Origin: Alphaproteobacteria bacterium
GTDB lineage: Bacteria > Pseudomonadota > Alphaproteobacteria > SP197
Direction: 5' to 3'
DNA: 64,000 bases
NCBI GenBank assembly: GCA_964291415.2
Contig: OZ219918.1
Coordinates: 1,184,001-1,248,000 of the forward strand
Positions 15,202-50,832 of the stretch are shown in pieces. The first letter of the stretch is position 1; the number at the start of each line of letters is the position of its first letter. The notes under the pieces are model-generated. The model saw only the letters and a list, made by a program, of their open reading frames with translations, did no database searches and was not told the DNA's origin. A program made the position numbers and the translations under genes.

Positions 15202-16119
15202 TCAGTCTGTCGGCAGGACTCCGGGCGGCGGCGGCACCGCCTCGCATTTGAGCCAGTGGACCCGTTCGCGGTACGCGCGGTCGAGTTCGGGGTCGTTGCG
15301 CGGCCCTGGCGGACCGCCTGGTTCCTCGAGGAGGTGGTGCGGGTTGCGGCCGTTGACCGCGCCCATGAACGGGGCTCCGAAGTCGTAGCCGACAAGCCTC
15401 TGCAGTTGTTCGGGCAGTTCCCGAGCCTTGTCGGGAGGCAGGGTCAGGAACTGGTTTTCCTGCTGGCGCAGCCAGCCCAGCGCAAGGTTGATCGCAACGG
15501 CGGTGCGCGGCCGCGCCGAGGCGTTGGCGCCGCCGCCGTGAATCAGGCTGTGGGCATAGATGATAGCCGCCCCGGCGGGCATCTCCGCCACCTCGATCTC
15601 GTCGGCGCGGGGACGGCGTTCCTCGTCCCACAGGTGGCTTCCCGGAACGATGCGTGTGGCGCCGTTCTCGCGGGTGAACTCGGTTACGGCCCACAGCGAA
15701 CCCTGCTGCGTTATCGGACCCGGATTGCGAAAGGGGTAGAAGAAGGCGTCCCTGTGGAGAGCCTGGGCGGTCTCTCCGGGAAGCAGGTGCATGGTGCCGG
15801 TGTAAGTGATCTGGTAGCGCGCGCACCACGGCAGGAGGATGTGGTCCGCGGCGCCGAGAAGGATGGGATGGAGCGCCATCGCGCGCGTGGTAGGCGCGCG
15901 CATGAAGAGATTGTTGAGACGCTGGGTCCGGGCTCCCAGGAAATCGCTCTCGCCCGTCGCCTGGCCGGCGAGCCCGCGGTCGAGCTCCCCACGCAGGGAG
16001 GTGAGGTCGCCGGCGCCGATCATGTTCTCGATGATGGCATAGCCATGCTGCTCGATGGCGCGTCCGACCTCCCCGCCGTCGGTGGATCGTGCATCGAACC
16101 TTGCTGCAACCGACATCAA
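15202..16119 (-). CDS. Phytanoyl-CoA dioxygenase (PhyH) family Fe/2OG enzyme
   Basis: ALHRD, ENGATRIVPGSHLWD, IHGGGAN, WLRQQENQFL. Confidence 0.9.
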   Translation of the reverse strand: MMSVAARFDARSTDGGEVGRAIEQHGYAIIENMIGAGDLTSLRGELDRGLAGQATGESDFLGARTQRLNNLFMRAPTTRAMALHPILLGAADHILLPWCARYQITYTGTMHLLPGETAQALHRDAFFYPFRNPGPITQQGSLWAVTEFTRENGATRIVPGSHLWDEERRPRADEIEVAEMPAGAAIIYAHSLIHGGGANASARPRTAVAINLALGWLRQQENQFLTLPPDKARELPEQLQRLVGYDFGAPFMGAVNGRNPHHLLEEPGGPPGPRNDPELDRAYRERVHWLKCEAVPPPPGVLPTD

Positions 16120-16165
16120 TGGACCTCCGCGCAGCTGCGCGGGGCAGTCTCCCTGTCCTCCGATT

Positions 16166-16330
16166 GGGACTTACATCGAGAAGTTGGCGGCGTCATGCCG
16201 CCATCCTCCGATCGATTTCGCGGTTCACAGGCCCGGTAACCCGGCAACCTCCCCGCGCAGATGCCTCAGTCCCCGAGGCCAGGATGTTCGCCGCTGCATT
16301 GAGGTCGGCGTGATCCGCATGGCCACAGGC
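16166..16330 (-). ncRNA. Putative omegaRNA scaffold overlapping the tnpB 3' end (boundaries approximate)
   Basis: Hairpins GCCTCG/TGAGGC, CGCGG/CCGCG and TGGCGGC-atgac-GCCGCCA at the position where TnpB omegaRNAs normally lie. Confidence 0.45.
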
Positions 16331-17392
16331 CACGCATTGAAACAGGTCCCGCGTCCTGCGTGATTGGGCGCTTGTGACGCCGCACGCTGCACAGGTCTGG
16401 CTGCTGTAGGCCGGGTTCACCGCGATGACGCGGCAAGCCTTGTAGTCCAGCATTCTCCGGAACGACGACCAGCCCGTCTCCAGGATGACGCGGTTGAGAC
16501 CCGCCTTGGACCGCACGTGGCGTCCCGGCTCCTCCTTCGTGCCCCTGGCGCTGCGGGTCATGGTGCGGACCTTCAGATCCTCGACCACCACCGTCCCCGC
16601 TTCATCCGCCAGCCGGCGGCTGACATGGTGCTGCCAGTCATGGCGCTTCATGGCCATGTGCCGGGTGGTTTTCGCCAGACGTCGCCGCGTCTTCTCCCGG
16701 CGCCTGCTGCCACGTTGCTGCCGCGCCAGTTGCTTGGCGTAGCGCCGGGCGCGGGCCTCGAGACGCCGGCTCCTCTCCAGACGCATGATCTCCCCGTCCG
16801 AGGTCGCCACTGCACCTGCATTCATGTCCACGCCGACGGCATGGCCGTTGTCGTCGGATTCCGGCAGCGACACCGCATGGCATACCACCGCCTTCCAGCG
16901 TCCCTCCTCGCGCTTGAGGACCGCACTCACCGGCGTGCCCTGCGGCCAGGGATTGCCGCCCCGGCGGCGGATGGTCAGCCAGCCCACACCGGGGATGCGC
17001 AGGCGGTTGCCTTCAACCCTGACGCCGGAGACCACGGAAAGGCTGTTGAAATGCCGGCGTCCCTGGAACCGGGGGAACCCGGCCCCACCCTGCTTCACCC
17101 GCCGGAAGAAGCCCTTGAAGGCATGATCGAGGCGCTTGAGCGTCCCACGCTGGATGGCCACCGGCACCACAGCCATCTCCGGCAGGGCCTTGCGGCAACG
17201 GGTCAGGGACTTCGCCTGATCGAAGTAGGTGAGTGACTTACCAGTCTTCCGGAAGCAGTCGATCCGTTCTTCCAGCGCCGCGTTGTAGAGCTGGCGCTGT
17301 GCATCGAGCATGGCGTCCAGCCGCCGCCAGGTGTTGCGCTTCTCGGGCAGCAGGCGAAAGGTGATCTGTCGATGGGTGACAGAGGACGGCAT
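16193..17392 (-). CDS. tnpB: RNA-guided endonuclease TnpB
   Basis: HTH N-terminus (RQLYNAAL), RuvC-I VGVDMN, RuvC-II VVVEDL, zinc ribbon CAAC/CVAC, RuvC-III HADLNAAANI. Confidence 0.95.
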   Translation of the reverse strand: MPSSVTHRQITFRLLPEKRNTWRRLDAMLDAQRQLYNAALEERIDCFRKTGKSLTYFDQAKSLTRCRKALPEMAVVPVAIQRGTLKRLDHAFKGFFRRVKQGGAGFPRFQGRRHFNSLSVVSGVRVEGNRLRIPGVGWLTIRRRGGNPWPQGTPVSAVLKREEGRWKAVVCHAVSLPESDDNGHAVGVDMNAGAVATSDGEIMRLERSRRLEARARRYAKQLARQQRGSRRREKTRRRLAKTTRHMAMKRHDWQHHVSRRLADEAGTVVVEDLKVRTMTRSARGTKEEPGRHVRSKAGLNRVILETGWSSFRRMLDYKACRVIAVNPAYSSQTCAACGVTSAQSRRTRDLFQCVACGHADHADLNAAANILASGTEASARGGCRVTGPVNREIDRRMAA

Positions 17393-17433
17393 GTGGGAAC
17401 TCCGGTGTTACAGGCACTGATTTACGACACGAA

Positions 17434-17462
17434 ATCATACCGATAACACCACTGGATGTCAA
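17434..17462 (-). promoter_or_regulatory. Sigma70-type promoter of tnpB
   Basis: Minus strand TTGACA-N17-TATGAT, 41 nt upstream of the ATG. Confidence 0.75.
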
Positions 17463-17573
17463 GTCGATTCTGTCAAGTTCAGTATGTAATCCCCTCCGAT
17501 TCGCCGTCAATCTCCCCGAGACGCAGGACCCCGCGGCGGCCCCAGCGGGATTGAAAGGAGAGGGACCGTCCAT

Positions 17574-18200
17574 GTGCCGGGTTCGGCATCTGTGCGTTCG
17601 CCTTGTCGGCTGCCGCCGCTCAACGGTCTCGGCATTGCCATGATCCTGCTTGCTGCGACAGGCCTCGGCCTGGAGACGGACCGGACCATCCATGAGCACT
17701 TCAGCCGGTCTTTCGCATCGCGTTCGCCGTCGCCGCTCCGCGCGACGGGCGCTGTCTCGGCGACGGCTGGAGATCCTTCGACATCATCGTCCTCGTCCGG
17801 GCCTTCGTTTCGGATGCATGCGAACTCGCTCTCATGGCGCGTCTGGCGAGACTCCTGAGGGTGCTGCGCGTCGTGATCGCGGTCTCCCGGCTGCGCCTTG
17901 TCGTCTCGACCCTGGTCCGTTCGCTGCCGGAGCTGGGCCATGACATGCTGCCGCTGTTCGTCATCTGCTGCGTTTGCGGCATCGCCGACGTGCAGCTCTT
18001 CGGCTCGTGCGACACGGTGCACCGGTTTCCTCCCGGTCCGGAAGCGCCAACGCAGTCGTCTCCTTGTGGACGTCCAGACCTGTGTATGATCTATACTCGG
18101 CCGTCACCGGCTCTCCTCGATGTGGTTCTGTGTTCAGCGGTACTCCGACATCGAGCATGGTCCGCGATCCTCGAGGCCAGGGCGGGTCAGTCCATGATGC
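17574..18200 (+). pseudogene. Degraded voltage-gated ion channel (Ion_trans, BacNav-like)
   Basis: LGLETD (S1), DGWRSFDIIV (S3), ARLARLLRVLRV (S4 arginine repeat), LRLVVSTLVRSLP; frameshifted, pore region lost. Confidence 0.7.
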
Positions 18201-47984: not shown

Positions 47985-49606
47985 GATTCGCAGACAAGCC
48001 GGTGCTCGACGCGCTGGGCGGGATTCTTGCCCACAGCGTCACGATTGAAGGGCGTACCGTGAGGAAGGGGCGCCGCCTTGACGAGGCGCTCGCCGACGAA
48101 CTTCTGGCAGCCGGCGTCACGTCGCTCTACGTCGCCATGCTCGACACCGGTGATGTCCTGGAGGATGAAGCGGCAACCAGGGTCGCAGAGGCCCTTGCGG
48201 GGTCCCATCTTCTGGTGCAAGCCGCGTCAAGGGGCCGGGTCGACATTGTCGCCCGAAGGCCAGGTCTTGTGGTGATCGACACCGTTGTGCTGGAGGCCGT
48301 GAACGGTGTCGATGAAGCGGTGACGGTTGCCACGTTGCCCGGCTTCGAACCGGTGGGTGAGGGCGAGAGGGTGGCGACCATCAAGATCATTCCCTTCGCC
48401 GTGCCATCGGCCACCGTTGCGGCCTGCGTCGGCCTGGTCGAAGCGCCGGCACTCGCGATCGCCCCCTTCGCCGCCTGGCGCACAGGCCTCGTCATGACCA
48501 CCTCGCCGGCGGTGAAGTCCCGGGTTCTCGACCGCACCCAGAGTGTGGTGACCGCGAGAATCGAGGGATTCGGACTGTGCCTCGGCGACAGCGTCAGGAC
48601 CCCGCACCGGACTCCGGACCTCGCGGACACCATCACCCGCATGGCCACGAGCCACGATGTCGTTCTCGTCTACGGCGCCTCTGCCATCTCGGACCGCAGG
48701 GATGTCATCCCGGCCGCGATTGAGACCGCGGGGGGTGTGGTCGATCATCTCGGCATGCCGGTCGATCCTGGCAATCTCCTGCTTCTCGCCCACATCGGAA
48801 GCACCCGTGTTCTCGGTCTTCCGGGGTGTGCCAGGTCGCCGCAGCCCAATGGACTCGATCTCGTTCTGGGGCGGCTCGCCGCAGGAATCCACGTGACCGG
48901 CGCGGACATCCAGGCCATGGGTGTCGGCGGCCTCCTCAAGGGACGGCCTTCGGGTGTCCTTCCCGTGGCGGGAAGCCGCAAGGGAATGCCGGCTGCGATC
49001 GTCCTGGCGGCGGGCCGCAGCCGGCGCATGGGCGGGCACAACAAGCTCCTGATGACGATCGATGGTGTGCCCATGATCCGTCACGTGGTGAACGCGCTTC
49101 TTGCGGCCGGAATTGCGGTCATTCGGGTCGTGACCGGCCATCAGGCCTCCGCCGTGCGTGCGGCCCTGGAGGGCTGTGCCGTCTCGTTTGTCGACAACAG
49201 CGAGCACGAAGCGGGGCTCAGCACGTCACTGAAGGCGGGACTCGATGCGCTCCCCGCCTCCTGCGGAGCCGCACTCGTCTGCCTGGGCGACATGCCGGCT
49301 GTCGCTGGTCCGGCGTTGCGTTCCCTTGTCCGTGCATGGCAGGGTTCGAAGGCCAAGGCGATCGTTGTGCCGACGTGGAATGGCCGCCGGGGCAATCCCG
49401 TTCTGTGGGACAGCAGCTTCTTCCAGGCGATGCGCAGGGTGACGGGCGACGCCGGCGCCAGGCACCTGATCGGCGAGTACGCCGACTACGTGATCGAGGT
49501 GGCGATGGACGACGGAGCCGTTCTGGTGGATATCGACACGCCGGAAGACGCAAGCGGTCTCGTCATGGCCGACGGCGAGGCAGATCGGGGGAAGCGCGAA
49601 CGATGA
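47981..49606 (+). CDS. Molybdopterin-binding / MocA cytidylyltransferase fusion
   Basis: GMPVDPGNLL, LPGCARSP, VLAAGRSRRMG..NKL, LGDMP, GNPVLW, DIDTPED. Confidence 0.9.
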   Translation: MRFADKPVLDALGGILAHSVTIEGRTVRKGRRLDEALADELLAAGVTSLYVAMLDTGDVLEDEAATRVAEALAGSHLLVQAASRGRVDIVARRPGLVVIDTVVLEAVNGVDEAVTVATLPGFEPVGEGERVATIKIIPFAVPSATVAACVGLVEAPALAIAPFAAWRTGLVMTTSPAVKSRVLDRTQSVVTARIEGFGLCLGDSVRTPHRTPDLADTITRMATSHDVVLVYGASAISDRRDVIPAAIETAGGVVDHLGMPVDPGNLLLLAHIGSTRVLGLPGCARSPQPNGLDLVLGRLAAGIHVTGADIQAMGVGGLLKGRPSGVLPVAGSRKGMPAAIVLAAGRSRRMGGHNKLLMTIDGVPMIRHVVNALLAAGIAVIRVVTGHQASAVRAALEGCAVSFVDNSEHEAGLSTSLKAGLDALPASCGAALVCLGDMPAVAGPALRSLVRAWQGSKAKAIVVPTWNGRRGNPVLWDSSFFQAMRRVTGDAGARHLIGEYADYVIEVAMDDGAVLVDIDTPEDASGLVMADGEADRGKRER

Positions 49607-50832
49607 GCGTGACGATCGACTCCATCAACCAGGCCTCACGCGTGATTGCGGGACATGTCGTCAGGACGCCCTGTGTCCAATCGCGCACGTTGTCGACAAT
49701 GAGCGGAGCCGACGTCTTCGTGAAATTCGAGAACCAGCAGTTCACGGCATCCTTCAAGGACCGCGGCGCCCTGGTGAAGATCGCCTCGCTCGGAGATGAG
49801 GAACGCTCCCGCGGCGTCATTGCGATGTCAGCCGGCAATCATGCCCAGTCCGTTGCCTACCATGCCCAGCGCCTGGGCATTCCGGCGACCATCGTCATGC
49901 CAGTCGGGGCGTCGGTGGTAAAGGTCCGGAACACCGAGCGCTTTGGCGCCCGGGTCATCCTGACCGGCGAGACCATTGATGATGCGGCGGTGTCCGCCCA
50001 TCTCATGGCGGCCGATGAGAATCTCGTCTTTGTCCATCCCTATCATGATGATCACGTCATGGCAGGGCAGGGGACCCTTGCCCTCGAGATGCTCGAGGAC
50101 GCACCGGATCTCGATGTCATCATCGTCCCGATCGGTGGCGGAGGGCTGATCGGCGGAATCGCCGTTGCCGCCAGGGCCATCCGTCCGGAGGTGGAGATCG
50201 TCGGTGTCGAAGCCGAGATGTTTCCCTCGATGTACCAGCAGCTCAGGGGAATGGAGGTGAAGGCGGGAGGCCGCACAATCGCTGACGGCATTGCGGTGAA
50301 GACGCCCGGAAAGAATGCCATTCCCATCGTCCGGGATCTCGTGTCGGACATTGTCCTGGTGAGCGAAAGCCAGCTTGAACATGCCGTCCAGACCTATCTG
50401 GAAATCGAAAAGACGGTGGCGGAAGGCGGAGGGGCTGCGCCGCTTGCCTGCCTTCTCGCCTGGCCCGAGCGCTTCCGCGGGCGCAAGGTGGGCCTTGTCC
50501 TGTCGGGAGGCAACATCGACAGCCGGGTGCTGTCGATGGTGATCGAGCACGGTCTCGTGCGAGACGGCCGCATGGTCCGTCTCGGCCTGGAGATTCCTGA
50601 TGCACCGGGTGTGCTGGGCAGAGTGTCCGCCATCATCGGCGAAACCGGAGCGAACATCATCGAAGTGCATCACCAGAGGGCGTTCTCCAATCTCTCGGTC
50701 AAGCTTGCCGATCTCGATATCGTTCTTGAAACCCTCGACCGGGATCACATCAGTCGGATTGCAGAACGTCTGCTGGAGGCCGGATTCCGCGTCCAGCCCG
50801 TTGAACCCGTCTCCGGCTCGAGAACGGTCTGA
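49603..50832 (+). CDS. ilvA: Threonine ammonia-lyase with ACT domain
   Basis: KFENQQFTASFKDRGA, SAGNHAQ, PIGGGGL, LSGGNID. Confidence 0.92.
   Translation: MSVTIDSINQASRVIAGHVVRTPCVQSRTLSTMSGADVFVKFENQQFTASFKDRGALVKIASLGDEERSRGVIAMSAGNHAQSVAYHAQRLGIPATIVMPVGASVVKVRNTERFGARVILTGETIDDAAVSAHLMAADENLVFVHPYHDDHVMAGQGTLALEMLEDAPDLDVIIVPIGGGGLIGGIAVAARAIRPEVEIVGVEAEMFPSMYQQLRGMEVKAGGRTIADGIAVKTPGKNAIPIVRDLVSDIVLVSESQLEHAVQTYLEIEKTVAEGGGAAPLACLLAWPERFRGRKVGLVLSGGNIDSRVLSMVIEHGLVRDGRMVRLGLEIPDAPGVLGRVSAIIGETGANIIEVHHQRAFSNLSVKLADLDIVLETLDRDHISRIAERLLEAGFRVQPVEPVSGSRTV

What the first reader, a model, noticed from the sequence alone, without database searches (positions are those of the whole stretch)
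16158..17501. TnpB as sole cargo of an element with terminal inverted repeats and target-site duplication (DDE/IS1595-like ends)
Seen: tnpB with all three RuvC acidic residues and the zinc ribbon intact, and no transposase. The ends 16166-16190 (GGGACTTACATCGAGAAGTTGGCGG) and the reverse complement of 17470-17494 (GGGGATTACATACTGAACTTGACAG) match at 17/25 positions ungapped. TCCGATT lies directly outside both ends (8 bp CTCCGATT if a 1-nt gap is allowed in the TIR). Established: IS200/IS605 and IS607 elements, the usual TnpB hosts, have no TIRs and make no TSD. IS1595-family elements have ~25-bp IRs often starting GG, make 8-bp duplications and include transposase-less passenger cassettes. Inference: a non-autonomous DDE-type cassette has captured an RNA-guided nuclease and is mobilised in trans. 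This would be a different lifestyle for TnpB.
Basis: partly seen in the sequence, partly recalled or inferred. Interest (0 to 1): 0.88.

Follow-up and report, generated by a model that had tools for sequence, protein, structure and literature searches.

The report
TnpB cassette mobilised by IS1595 transposase
A 1.3-kb mobile element that carries only the RNA-guided nuclease gene tnpB has the inverted-repeat ends and 8-bp target duplications of an IS1595-type cut-and-paste transposon, so it is moved by a transposase encoded elsewhere in the genome, a partnership not named in the TnpB papers I could read.

Summary
Observation confirmed; interpretation supported. The element is window 16166-17493 (1328 bp, tnpB on the minus strand), flanked by the 8-bp duplication CTCCGATT (16158-16165, 17494-17501). 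Homology among the copies in this genome stops at these ends. Each copy has a different 8-bp duplication. Two related genomes and two sponge-metagenome runs carry the empty site. The genome has no IS200/IS605 TnpA. It has an IS1595-family transposase in a 3.2-kb element 1.1 Mb away whose inverted repeats match the cassette's left end at 23 of 25 positions. All 71 relatives placed in the tree (40-92% identity, MAGs labelled with several phyla, some sponge-associated) lie on one side of a 99%-supported branch. An automatic scan found terminal repeats plus a perfect 8-bp duplication in 34 of the 80 loci fetched. No locus had a transposase beside tnpB. TnpB keeps its catalytic residues, is under purifying selection, and has a structured omega-RNA-like 3' region. 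New here: the base just outside the left duplication is G in 42 of 45 insertions, against 7 of 26 ends of transposase-bearing IS1595 elements. This orientation-specific mark fits a TAM. DDE-linked TnpBs are already published (Altae-Tran 2023), so this is a new variant, not a new kind.

The parts
16158..16165 (.). Target-site duplication, copy next to the right end (CTCCGATT on + strand)
   Evidence: sequence. A single copy is present in the empty sites of G024 and G014. Sponge-metagenome contigs join 16158 to 17495.
16166..16190 (-). Right-end (RE) terminal inverted repeat; reads GGGACTTACATCGAGAAGTTGGCGG on the + strand
   Evidence: Homology with the other copies ends here. RE consensus of other copies is GGGACTTATATCGAGAAGTTGACAG.
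16186..16202 (-). 6-bp stem / 5-nt loop hairpin (GGCGGC-ATGAC-GCCGCC on the minus strand); the loop holds the tnpB stop codon
   Evidence: Other copies have GGCAGC...GCTGTC, so the stem is kept through changes on both arms. I read this from the printed sequences.
16166..16385 (-). Predicted omega-RNA scaffold region (3' part of tnpB through the RE tip)
   Evidence: RNAalifold on 16 elements: 32 pairs, 12 with compensatory double changes. Synonymous differences are lower in the last 80 codons (weak). No RNA ends were mapped. No Rfam family matched.
16193..17392 (-). tnpB, 399 aa, intact
   Evidence: dN/dS is 0.16-0.43 among 9 intact copies.
17434..17462 (-). Sigma-70-like promoter TTGACA-17-TATGAT just inside the left end
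   Evidence: 11 of 12 matches; 2 sites found against 0.2 expected in shuffles. It is a consensus match only.
17469..17493 (-). Left-end (LE) terminal inverted repeat (minus strand GGGATTACATACTGAACTTGACAGA; one G shorter than in other copies)
   Evidence: It matches the IS1595 element's repeat GGGGATTATATACTGAACTTGACAA.
17494..17501 (.). Target-site duplication, copy next to the left end (CTCCGATT)
17502..17502 (-). Flank base just outside the left duplication; G on the tnpB strand (candidate TAM-proximal base)
   Evidence: G at this position in 36 of 39 perfect-TSD sites and 6 of 6 sites with 7/8 TSD.
16146..16165 (-). Inferred guide template (duplication plus flank transcribed past the RE)
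   Evidence: Inference by analogy with IS200/IS605 TnpB omega-RNAs. Not shown here.

Best explanation
The element is a non-autonomous IS1595-family transposon whose only gene is tnpB. An IS1595-family DDE transposase made elsewhere (in this genome by the 3161-bp element at contig C2:46358-49518, 1.1 Mb from the window) would recognise the about 25-bp terminal inverted repeats. It would then move the 1.33-kb cassette into AT-rich 8-bp targets, duplicating them.

Shown: the ends, the duplications, the empty sites, the matching repeats on a transposase-bearing element, and the absence of TnpA.

Inferred, part 1: tnpB is transcribed from a promoter-like site in the left end. Its 3' part and the right end give an omega-RNA whose guide is read from the flank.

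Inferred, part 2: the TnpB-RNA complex cuts the empty form of its own insertion site (flank-G, single duplication, right flank), so that repair from a filled copy restores the cassette. The orientation-specific G just outside the left duplication would be the part of the TAM that this requires.
For: - Boundaries: 4 full copies (93-94% identical to the window's), 1 interrupted copy and 1 truncated copy in the genome. Homology ends at window 16166 and 17494.
- Duplications in this genome: 8/8 in 3 of the 5 copies with both ends, 8/8 in the window copy once the empty site fixes the boundary, none in 1.
- Relatives in the genus: 12 of 26 loci have a perfect 8-bp duplication and 3 more have 7/8 (partly by eye).
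- Wider relatives: 34 of 80 loci have 8/8 plus a GG-initiated repeat of at least 13/20 by an automatic scan, and 6 more have 7/8.
- Empty sites: G024 and G014. Contigs of DNA runs X2 and X4 skip 1336 bp, 16158 to 17495.
- Partner: two IS1595-family transposases in the genome. The repeats of element A match the cassette LE at 23 of 25 positions. The motif scan found 13 sites in 4.4 Mb: 10 at cassette ends, 2 at element A, 1 elsewhere.
- The DDE_Tnp_IS1595 domain is present in 18 of 23 genomes of the genus, and in 10 of the 12 that have this TnpB.
- It is present in 5 of 5 other MAGs tested, with repeats matching the local cassette at 19/20, 17/20 and 17/20 in three of them.
- Ten autonomous elements in relatives (2.4-3.9 kb) have 18-22/22 repeats and 8-bp AT-rich duplications, with repeat sequences close to those of the TnpB cassette lineages.
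- No Y1 TnpA in the genome.
- TnpB is functional-looking: invariant D-E-D and CxxC...CxxC; 9 of 9 ORFs intact with dN/dS 0.16-0.43.
- RNA: conserved stems with compensatory changes up to the RE tip.
- TAM-like mark: G at -1 in 42 of 45 sites, against C at the mirror position in 15 of 39, and against 7 of 26 ends of autonomous IS1595 elements. Fisher p = 7e-7 and 5e-8 for the 36/39 set.
Against: - No transposition, RNA or cleavage was observed; everything is comparative.
- G025 (complete, one contig) has three cassettes but no DDE_Tnp_IS1595 match.
- In G034 and G036 none of the 6 transposase loci sampled in each had a repeat matching the local cassette at 15/20 or better.
- 40 of the 80 wider loci were not resolved by the automatic scan and were not all inspected by eye.
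- One copy in this genome (L004) has no duplication, only a shared CATG.
- The window copy has a 1-nt deletion in its left repeat and may no longer move.
- A TAM of a single G would be unusually short. The control set of autonomous elements is small (13 elements) and comes from mixed transposase lineages.
- Cut-and-paste excision already leaves a break, so the benefit of homing is less obvious than for IS605 (argued in the review PMC13565253, section 6.2).
Confidence: 0.88

Rival explanations
1. A conventional IS200/IS605 (IS1341-group, tnpB-only) element moved by a Y1 TnpA. The inverted repeat and the flanking repeat would be coincidence, and the TTGAC outside the left end would be its TAM.
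For: TnpB belongs to the family usually found there. In this single copy the inverted repeat is no better than chance repeats. A TTGAC lies 4 nt outside the duplication.
Against: Boundaries of all copies coincide with the repeats. Each copy has a different 8-bp duplication. Empty sites hold one copy of the 8-mer and already contain the TTGAC. No conserved motif precedes the left end apart from one G. There is no Y1_Tnp in the genome or beside any of the relatives.
Confidence: 0.02
2. The cassette is moved by something other than the IS1595 transposase: by TnpB itself (a RuvC-fold enzyme once annotated as a transposase), or by another DDE family that makes 8-bp duplications. The repeat match to the IS1595 element would then reflect shared ancestry of ends only.
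For: tnpB is never next to a transposase: 0 of the TnpB loci held had one (hits only in L019 and L020 of 145 loci). G025 has three cassettes with different flanks but no IS1595 DDE domain. No matching repeat was found in the sampled transposase loci of G034 and G036.
Against: The repeats match at 23/25 in this genome and 19/20 in G035, between cassettes and elements whose only transposase is IS1595-type. Both share the same 8-bp AT-rich duplication. Different cassette lineages pair with different IS1595 repeat lineages. No activity of TnpB as a transposase is known to me (recall).
Confidence: 0.06
3. The G outside the left duplication has nothing to do with TnpB. It would be a target preference of the particular transposases that move these cassettes, or a by-product of where such elements are tolerated.
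For: The control is small: 13 autonomous elements, 26 ends. These come from several transposase lineages, not necessarily the ones that moved each cassette. Transposases often have weak flank preferences (general knowledge).
Against: The bias is one-sided. G at -1 occurs in 36 of 39 sites but C at the mirror position in only 15 of 39. It holds in 5 of 5 cassettes with nearly identical ends, 19-20 of 20 (L091, L092, L100, L105, L138), so end asymmetry cannot set the side. Only 5 of 13 autonomous elements have a G-equivalent on either side (read).
Confidence: 0.4

Closest known systems
DDE-transposase-associated TnpB branches (DDE-1 to DDE-6) of Altae-Tran et al. 2023, PNAS (PMC10691335; sections 5, 8, 9 and 10 seen as passages, section 9 read whole)
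   Same: tnpB lies inside a transposon with inverted terminal repeats. The 3' end of tnpB is close to a transposon end. Solo tnpB copies have the same ends and are taken to be mobilised in trans.
   Different: Those branches were defined by a DDE transposase next to tnpB. Here none of the loci examined has one. The families named in text I could read are IS630 (that paper) and ISL2, IS630 and IS1031 (review PMC13565253, section 6.2). 'IS1595' occurs 0 times in the paper's main text.
Fanzor1/Fanzor2 in eukaryotic cut-and-paste transposons (Bao and Jurka 2013, PMC3627910, search listing only; Yoon et al. 2023, PMC10711439, passages; review PMC13565253, section 6.2 read)
   Same: A TnpB-family nuclease is cargo of a TIR/TSD transposon, with the guide RNA running through the inverted repeat into the flank. 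In Fanzors the 5' duplication is read as part of the TAM, which parallels the one-sided G/A-T signal here.
   Different: This case is bacterial and has a compact 399-aa TnpB. The duplication is 8 bp and variable in sequence, not TA or TTAA. The transposase is IS1595-type and always in trans.
IS1341 group of IS200/IS605 (tnpB-only elements)
   Same: A 1.3-kb element whose only ORF is tnpB, present in several copies per genome, dependent on a transposase in trans.
   Different: IS200/IS605 elements have no terminal inverted repeats, make no duplication and insert 3' of a fixed motif (stated in PMC13565253, section 5.1 passage). All three features were tested here and are contradicted.
IS1595 family, including members with passenger genes and transposase-less derivatives
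   Same: About 25-bp repeats starting GG(G), and 8-bp duplications. The transposase-bearing relatives found here are 2.4-3.9 kb and carry extra genes. The family description (repeat length, 8-bp duplication, passenger-carrying subgroups) is recalled from ISfinder and Siguier et al. 2009 and was not checked here.
   Different: The passenger is an RNA-guided nuclease with its own promoter and RNA, and the cassette has diversified as a lineage of its own (40-100% protein identity). I found no paper linking tnpB and IS1595 in this way.

Membership tests
IS1595 family (as a non-autonomous member) | Terminal inverted repeats of about 15-40 bp shared with a transposase-bearing IS1595 element | tested here: met
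   Cassette LE against element A repeats: 23 of 25. G035: 19/20.
IS1595 family (as a non-autonomous member) | 8-bp target-site duplication | tested here: met
   Autonomous relatives show the same.
IS1595 family (as a non-autonomous member) | Encodes a DDE_Tnp_IS1595 transposase with an N-terminal zinc ribbon | tested here: not met
   The only ORF is tnpB. The weak Zn_ribbon_IS1595 hit (E 0.0037, below cut-off) lies on TnpB's own zinc ribbon. The element is therefore filed as a non-autonomous derivative, not an IS proper.
IS1595 family (as a non-autonomous member) | Actually mobilised by that transposase | not testable with these tools
   Needs a transposition assay.
IS200/IS605 (IS1341 group) | No terminal inverted repeats; subterminal hairpins recognised by Y1 TnpA | tested here: not met
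   Conserved terminal inverted repeats. No Y1_Tnp in the genome.
IS200/IS605 (IS1341 group) | No target-site duplication | tested here: not met
   8-bp duplications and single-copy empty sites.
IS200/IS605 (IS1341 group) | Insertion 3' of a fixed tetra- or pentanucleotide | tested here: not met
   Only one flank position is fixed (G, 36 of 39); positions -2 to -12 are not.
TnpB / OMEGA RNA-guided nuclease | RuvC D-E-D triad and CxxC...CxxC zinc ribbon | tested here: met
   D189, E271, D363, C334, C337, C353, C356 invariant. Pfam and NCBIfam hits above cut-off.
TnpB / OMEGA RNA-guided nuclease | Omega-RNA from the 3' end of the gene with a flank-derived guide | tested here: inconclusive
   Structure with covariation, but no mapped RNA. 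RNA-library contigs cover the element, which is not proof of transcription. No Rfam match.
TnpB / OMEGA RNA-guided nuclease | TAM-dependent cleavage of a guide-matched target | not testable with these tools
   Only the one-sided G at -1 hints at a TAM.

The most novel reading that the evidence does not exclude
TnpB is not idle cargo. The one-sided G (plus A/T at the first three duplicated bases) next to the left end is the footprint of its TAM. Then either only insertions that land beside a TAM survive, because RNA-guided cutting of the empty site restores the cassette, or TnpB helps choose where the IS1595 transposase inserts. In both cases an RNA-guided nuclease has been functionally coupled to a duplication-making DDE transposon in bacteria, with the transposase always supplied in trans. 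This would be a bacterial counterpart of Fanzor-carrying transposons and a possible step toward guided DDE transposition.
Probability: 0.4. Interest if true: 0.8.

Novelty: new variant of a known kind. Interest (0 to 1): 0.62.

Why it matters
TnpB's accepted role, restoring a transposon after scarless excision, was worked out for IS605 and IS607. Reviews argue that cut-and-paste DDE transposons gain little from it. Here a diversified TnpB lineage lives only in IS1595-type cassettes, keeps an intact active site under purifying selection, and carries an orientation-specific insertion-site mark.

This gives a tractable bacterial system: a 1.3-kb cassette plus one 327-aa transposase. With it one can ask what an RNA-guided nuclease does for a duplication-making transposon.

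It also shows that 'solo' TnpBs can be assigned to a mobilising transposase through their ends, even when gene-neighbourhood methods find no partner.

Tried and rejected
- Rfam scan of the region: only a sub-threshold chance hit.
- Shifted-duplication control: it gave 24 of 80, but it is invalid. A symmetric shift of both ends recovers the true duplication from inside the repeats, so I do not use it.
- MITE-like elements of 298 and 174 bp with similar ends. I first took them for omega-RNA-bearing deletion derivatives. One search shows that the shared 69 nt is an inverted insert present in only two of three copies, so I dropped them from the TAM argument.
- Compact autonomous IS1595 elements within 1.5 kb of the transposase domain: none found. 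The elements are longer, and were found after fetching 12-kb regions.
- Viral contigs: 100 relatives, the best 35% identical. No member of this clade, so no sign of a phage vector.
- Plasmids: best 40% identical.
- RNA evidence: one metatranscriptome run (X8) has contigs 90-99% like the element, one of them running 143 nt past the right end into another flank. Contigs of an RNA library do not prove transcription or show ends.
- The small word shares of the listed sponge and reef runs that I did not lay are not used as evidence of habitat.
- Synonymous-site dip in the last 80 codons: present but weak, and also seen at the 5' end.
- Supplements of PMC10691335, which list the DDE branches, could not be seen.
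Full report
**What is at the coordinates.** The window is contig C2:1184001-1248000 of a 4.44-Mb, five-contig genome. A 399-aa ORF lies on the minus strand at 16193-17392. It matches Pfam OrfB_IS605 (54 bits) and Cas12f1-like_TNB (69 bits) and NCBIfam guided_TnpB (213 bits). CTCCGATT lies at 16158-16165 and 17494-17501. Judged on this copy alone the inverted repeat is not remarkable: the repeat finder lists it third of 154 inverted pairs in the 1.46-kb region, and CCTCCGAT also occurs a third time inside the element. The case rests on comparison.

**Copies and boundaries.** The genome holds three more full copies that are 93-94% identical to the window's. It also holds one copy split by a 1805-bp insertion, one 399-bp left-end fragment, and small pieces. 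In every full copy the homology runs from window 16166 to 17494 and stops. Directly outside the ends lie CTTCCTTT/CTTCCTTT, AAAAAATG/AAAAAATG and ATCGACAA/ATCGACAA. One copy (L004) shares only CATG. The left end reads GGG(G/A)ATT(G/A)(T/C)ATAC...AACTTGACAG. The right end, reverse-complemented, reads GGGACTTATATCGAGAAGTTGACAG. They match at 17-18 of 25 positions.

**Empty sites.** A search of the genus with the element plus 1 kb on each side found both flanks contiguous in G024 and G014. The fetched DNA shows ...CCCTGTC-CTCCGATT-TGCCGTCAATC... in G024 and the same with CTCCGAAT in G014, so the 8-mer is present once. This fixes the duplication at 8 bp and the element at 16166-17493. It shows that the window copy lacks one G of its left repeat. 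Independently, one contig in each of two sponge-metagenome DNA runs joins 16158 to 17495, skipping 1336 bp, with 7 letters fitting both sides. These contigs were laid at 90% likeness or better and may come from related strains.

**The partner.** The genome has no Y1 TnpA: no PF01797 match, while the same search found the family in 6 of 14 control genomes, and no tblastn hit with three TnpA proteins. It has two adjacent IS1595-family transposase genes on C2 (NF033547, 187 and 177 bits).
- The first gene lies in a 3161-bp element, C2:46358-49518, together with a 464-aa ORF.
- Its repeats, GGGGATTATATACTGAGTTTGACAAGCG and GGGGATTATATACTGAACTTGACAAGCG, match the cassette's left end at 23 of 25 positions.
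- A loose motif for these ends hits 13 places in the genome: 10 at cassette ends, 2 at this element, 1 elsewhere.
- The TTGACA inside the repeat is followed after 17 nt by TATATT upstream of the transposase gene (read).
- The cassette has a second TTGACA with 17 nt to TATGAT (11 of 12 consensus matches).

**Relatives in the family.** TnpB relatives at E of 1e-30 or better occur in 12 of 33 genomes of the family, all in the window's genus. They fall into lineages at 85-92, 55-65, 49-52 and 36-42% identity. Of the 26 loci examined, 12 have a perfect 8-bp duplication outside GG-initiated inverted repeats and 3 more have 7/8. The rest are degenerate, lie at contig ends, or are unresolved (partly by eye). 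In the cassettes the tnpB stop lies about 27-31 nt from the right tip.

**Relatives beyond the family.** A scan of one genome per species found 336 relatives. The best 80 (41-92% identical) come from MAGs labelled Alphaproteobacteria, Thalassobaculaceae, Paracoccaceae, Gammaproteobacteria, Pseudomonadales, Rhodothermales, Bacteroidota and Candidatus Poriferihabitaceae. An automatic scan found an 8/8 duplication plus a repeat of at least 13/20 in 34 of the 80, and a 7/8 duplication in 6 more. The other 40 were not resolved by the scan. At least one of them (L066, the same copy as L022) is a cassette by eye.

**No transposase in cis, but one in the genome.** No IS1595 transposase lies within the flanks of any tnpB locus: tblastn hit only L019 and L020 among the 145 loci held. 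No TnpA lies there either. The IS1595 DDE domain is present in 18 of 23 genomes of the genus. Ten of the 12 TnpB-positive genomes have it. The exceptions are G012, which is fragmented, and G025, which is complete. The domain is present in 5 of 5 further MAGs, and repeats next to the transposase match the local cassette at 19/20, 17/20 and 17/20 in three of them. In the other two, none of the six loci sampled in each matched at 15/20 or better. Ten transposase-bearing elements in the genus are 2458-3928 bp long, have 18-22/22 repeats and 8-bp AT-rich duplications, and have repeat sequences that pair with particular cassette lineages. An example is GGGGATTATATACTTGACTGAA against a cassette's GGGCATTATATACTTGACTG.

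**Tree.** The tree has 80 rows (quick IQ-TREE). All 71 rows from the genome collection and the genus lie on one side of a branch with 99% SH-aLRT support and length 0.39. On the other side are eight plasmid-borne TnpBs and one distant genus copy. Rows with scored repeats and duplications occur in every subclade. Rows dropped before the tree were matches shorter than 1000 nt or with stops. The outgroup includes tnpA-adjacent IS605-type genes of Klebsiella and Azospirillum ramasamyi, and a Deinococcus gene with a tnpA about 1.4 kb away. It also includes two Bosea genes that have their own, different 25-bp repeats and 8-9-bp duplications. The sampling is of top hits only, so monophyly of the lifestyle is suggested, not proven.

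**Is TnpB functional?** D189, E271, D363 and the four zinc-ribbon cysteines are invariant across eight lineages down to 40% identity. Nine of nine copies at 87-100% identity are intact, with pairwise dN/dS of 0.16-0.43. The last 220 nt of 16 elements fold into a shared structure of 32 pairs, 12 of them with compensatory double changes. One stem pairs upstream sequence with part of the terminal repeat. Synonymous differences are somewhat lower in the last 80 codons. This is what an omega-RNA overlapping the 3' end of tnpB would look like, but no RNA was mapped.

**A one-sided insertion-site mark.** I aligned 39 distinct insertion sites with perfect duplications in the tnpB orientation.
- The base just outside the left duplication is G in 36 of the 39 sites.
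- Duplicated bases 1-3 are A or T in 34, 39 and 33 of the 39 sites.
- The mirror position after the right duplication is C in only 15 of the 39 sites.
- Six further sites with 7/8 duplications all have the G, giving 42 of 45; the background G frequency is 0.31.
- The five cassettes with nearly identical ends (19-20 of 20; L091, L092, L100, L105, L138) all have the G on the left and C on the right in only two.
- In 13 transposase-bearing IS1595 elements the equivalent base is G at 7 of 26 ends, and only 5 elements have it on either side (read). Fisher p = 5e-8 against the 36/39 set.

The left flank touches the guide-matching sequence only in the empty site. A constraint there that follows the orientation of tnpB is therefore what a TAM would leave. 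A review notes that in Fanzor-carrying DDE transposons the 5' duplication is read as part of the TAM (PMC13565253, section 6.2). I rate this reading at about 0.4. The control is small, and a one-base TAM would be unusual.

**What is known.** Altae-Tran et al. 2023 (PMC10691335; section 9 read, other sections as passages) describe six DDE-associated TnpB branches, all with inverted terminal repeats, and solo TnpBs with near-identical ends that they take to be moved in trans. The main text names only IS630, and 'IS1595' does not occur in it. A 2026 review lists ISL2, IS630 and IS1031. Full-text searches for TnpB with IS1595, IS1341 with IS1595, and TnpB with non-autonomous DDE elements returned no paper making this link. 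I therefore rate the finding as a new variant of a known kind: the partner family, the strictly in-trans arrangement across a whole clade, and the one-sided flank mark are the new parts.

**Verdict.** Confidence is 0.88 that this is an IS1595-mobilised tnpB cassette. Interest is 0.62.

Noticed in passing
outside the window: G000 C2:46358-49518 and C2:~49527-50600 (loci L019, L020): Two IS1595-family elements lie end to end, 9 bp apart. The first (3161 bp) carries a 464-aa ORF besides its transposase. The last 295 aa of that ORF had no Pfam match. Its flanking 8-mers match at only 6 of 8.
   Followed up: partly
G000 C2:344481-344778, C4:1169275-1169572, C4:883416-883589: MITE-like elements of 298, 298 and 174 bp have IS1595-type ends (GGGGATT... 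/ GGGACTT...). The two long ones contain an inverted 69-nt copy of the cassette's 3' RNA region between short direct repeats. They were found only in this genome.
   Followed up: partly
G000 C2:85682-87486 (loci L005, L007): One tnpB cassette is split by an 1805-bp element encoding an IS110-family DEDD transposase (Pfam DEDD_Tnp_IS110 and Transposase_20). It is inserted in the RuvC-III coding part of tnpB.
   Followed up: partly
plasmid loci L224 (Bosea sp. RAC05) and L240 (Bosea sp. ANAM02): TnpB genes about 40% identical to the window's sit in elements with a different 25-bp inverted repeat (GGCTATCCG.CAT..GAGGTTGAT) and 8-9-bp duplications (CTTACAGC; CTTTGTTAG). In the tree they group with IS605-type TnpBs, so there may be a second, separate TIR-type lineage.
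   Followed up: partly
G000 C4:1339554-1340882 (L004) and C4:883416-883589: One cassette and one MITE lack an 8-bp duplication and share only 4 bases at their flanks (CATG, GTTG). Recombination between copies would explain this but was not tested.
   Followed up: no
window 16205-16212 versus 16157-16164 and 17493-17500: The duplicated target CCTCCGAT also occurs inside the element, in the stretch predicted to pair with the terminal repeat. So in this copy the presumed guide start resembles part of the scaffold. Probably chance.
   Followed up: no
G025 (complete, one contig): loci L028, L035, L043: Three cassettes (one with an in-frame TAG) but no DDE_Tnp_IS1595 match in the genome. They are stranded elements or are moved by something else.
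   Followed up: no
G000 C1:387806-389100 (locus L018) and G014 locus L041: A second tnpB lineage (40-41% identical) in the same genome has its own near-perfect terminal repeat (22 of 25 in the G014 copy) and no clear duplication.
   Followed up: no
window 15202-16119 (-): The gene 47 bp downstream of the cassette's right end, on the same strand, is a PhyH-family dioxygenase. Read-through from tnpB would enter it.
   Followed up: no
loci L066-L145; runs X2, X4, X8: Some relatives are MAGs with sponge-associated labels (for example Candidatus Poriferihabitaceae), and the laid runs that hold the element are sponge metagenomes. The clade crosses phyla within what looks like one habitat, which suggests horizontal spread there.
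   Followed up: no
window 16165 to 17592, runs X8 and X1: One contig in each run joins 16165 to 17592 with 92 other letters between. This looks like a relative whose intergenic region differs and lacks the cassette.
   Followed up: no
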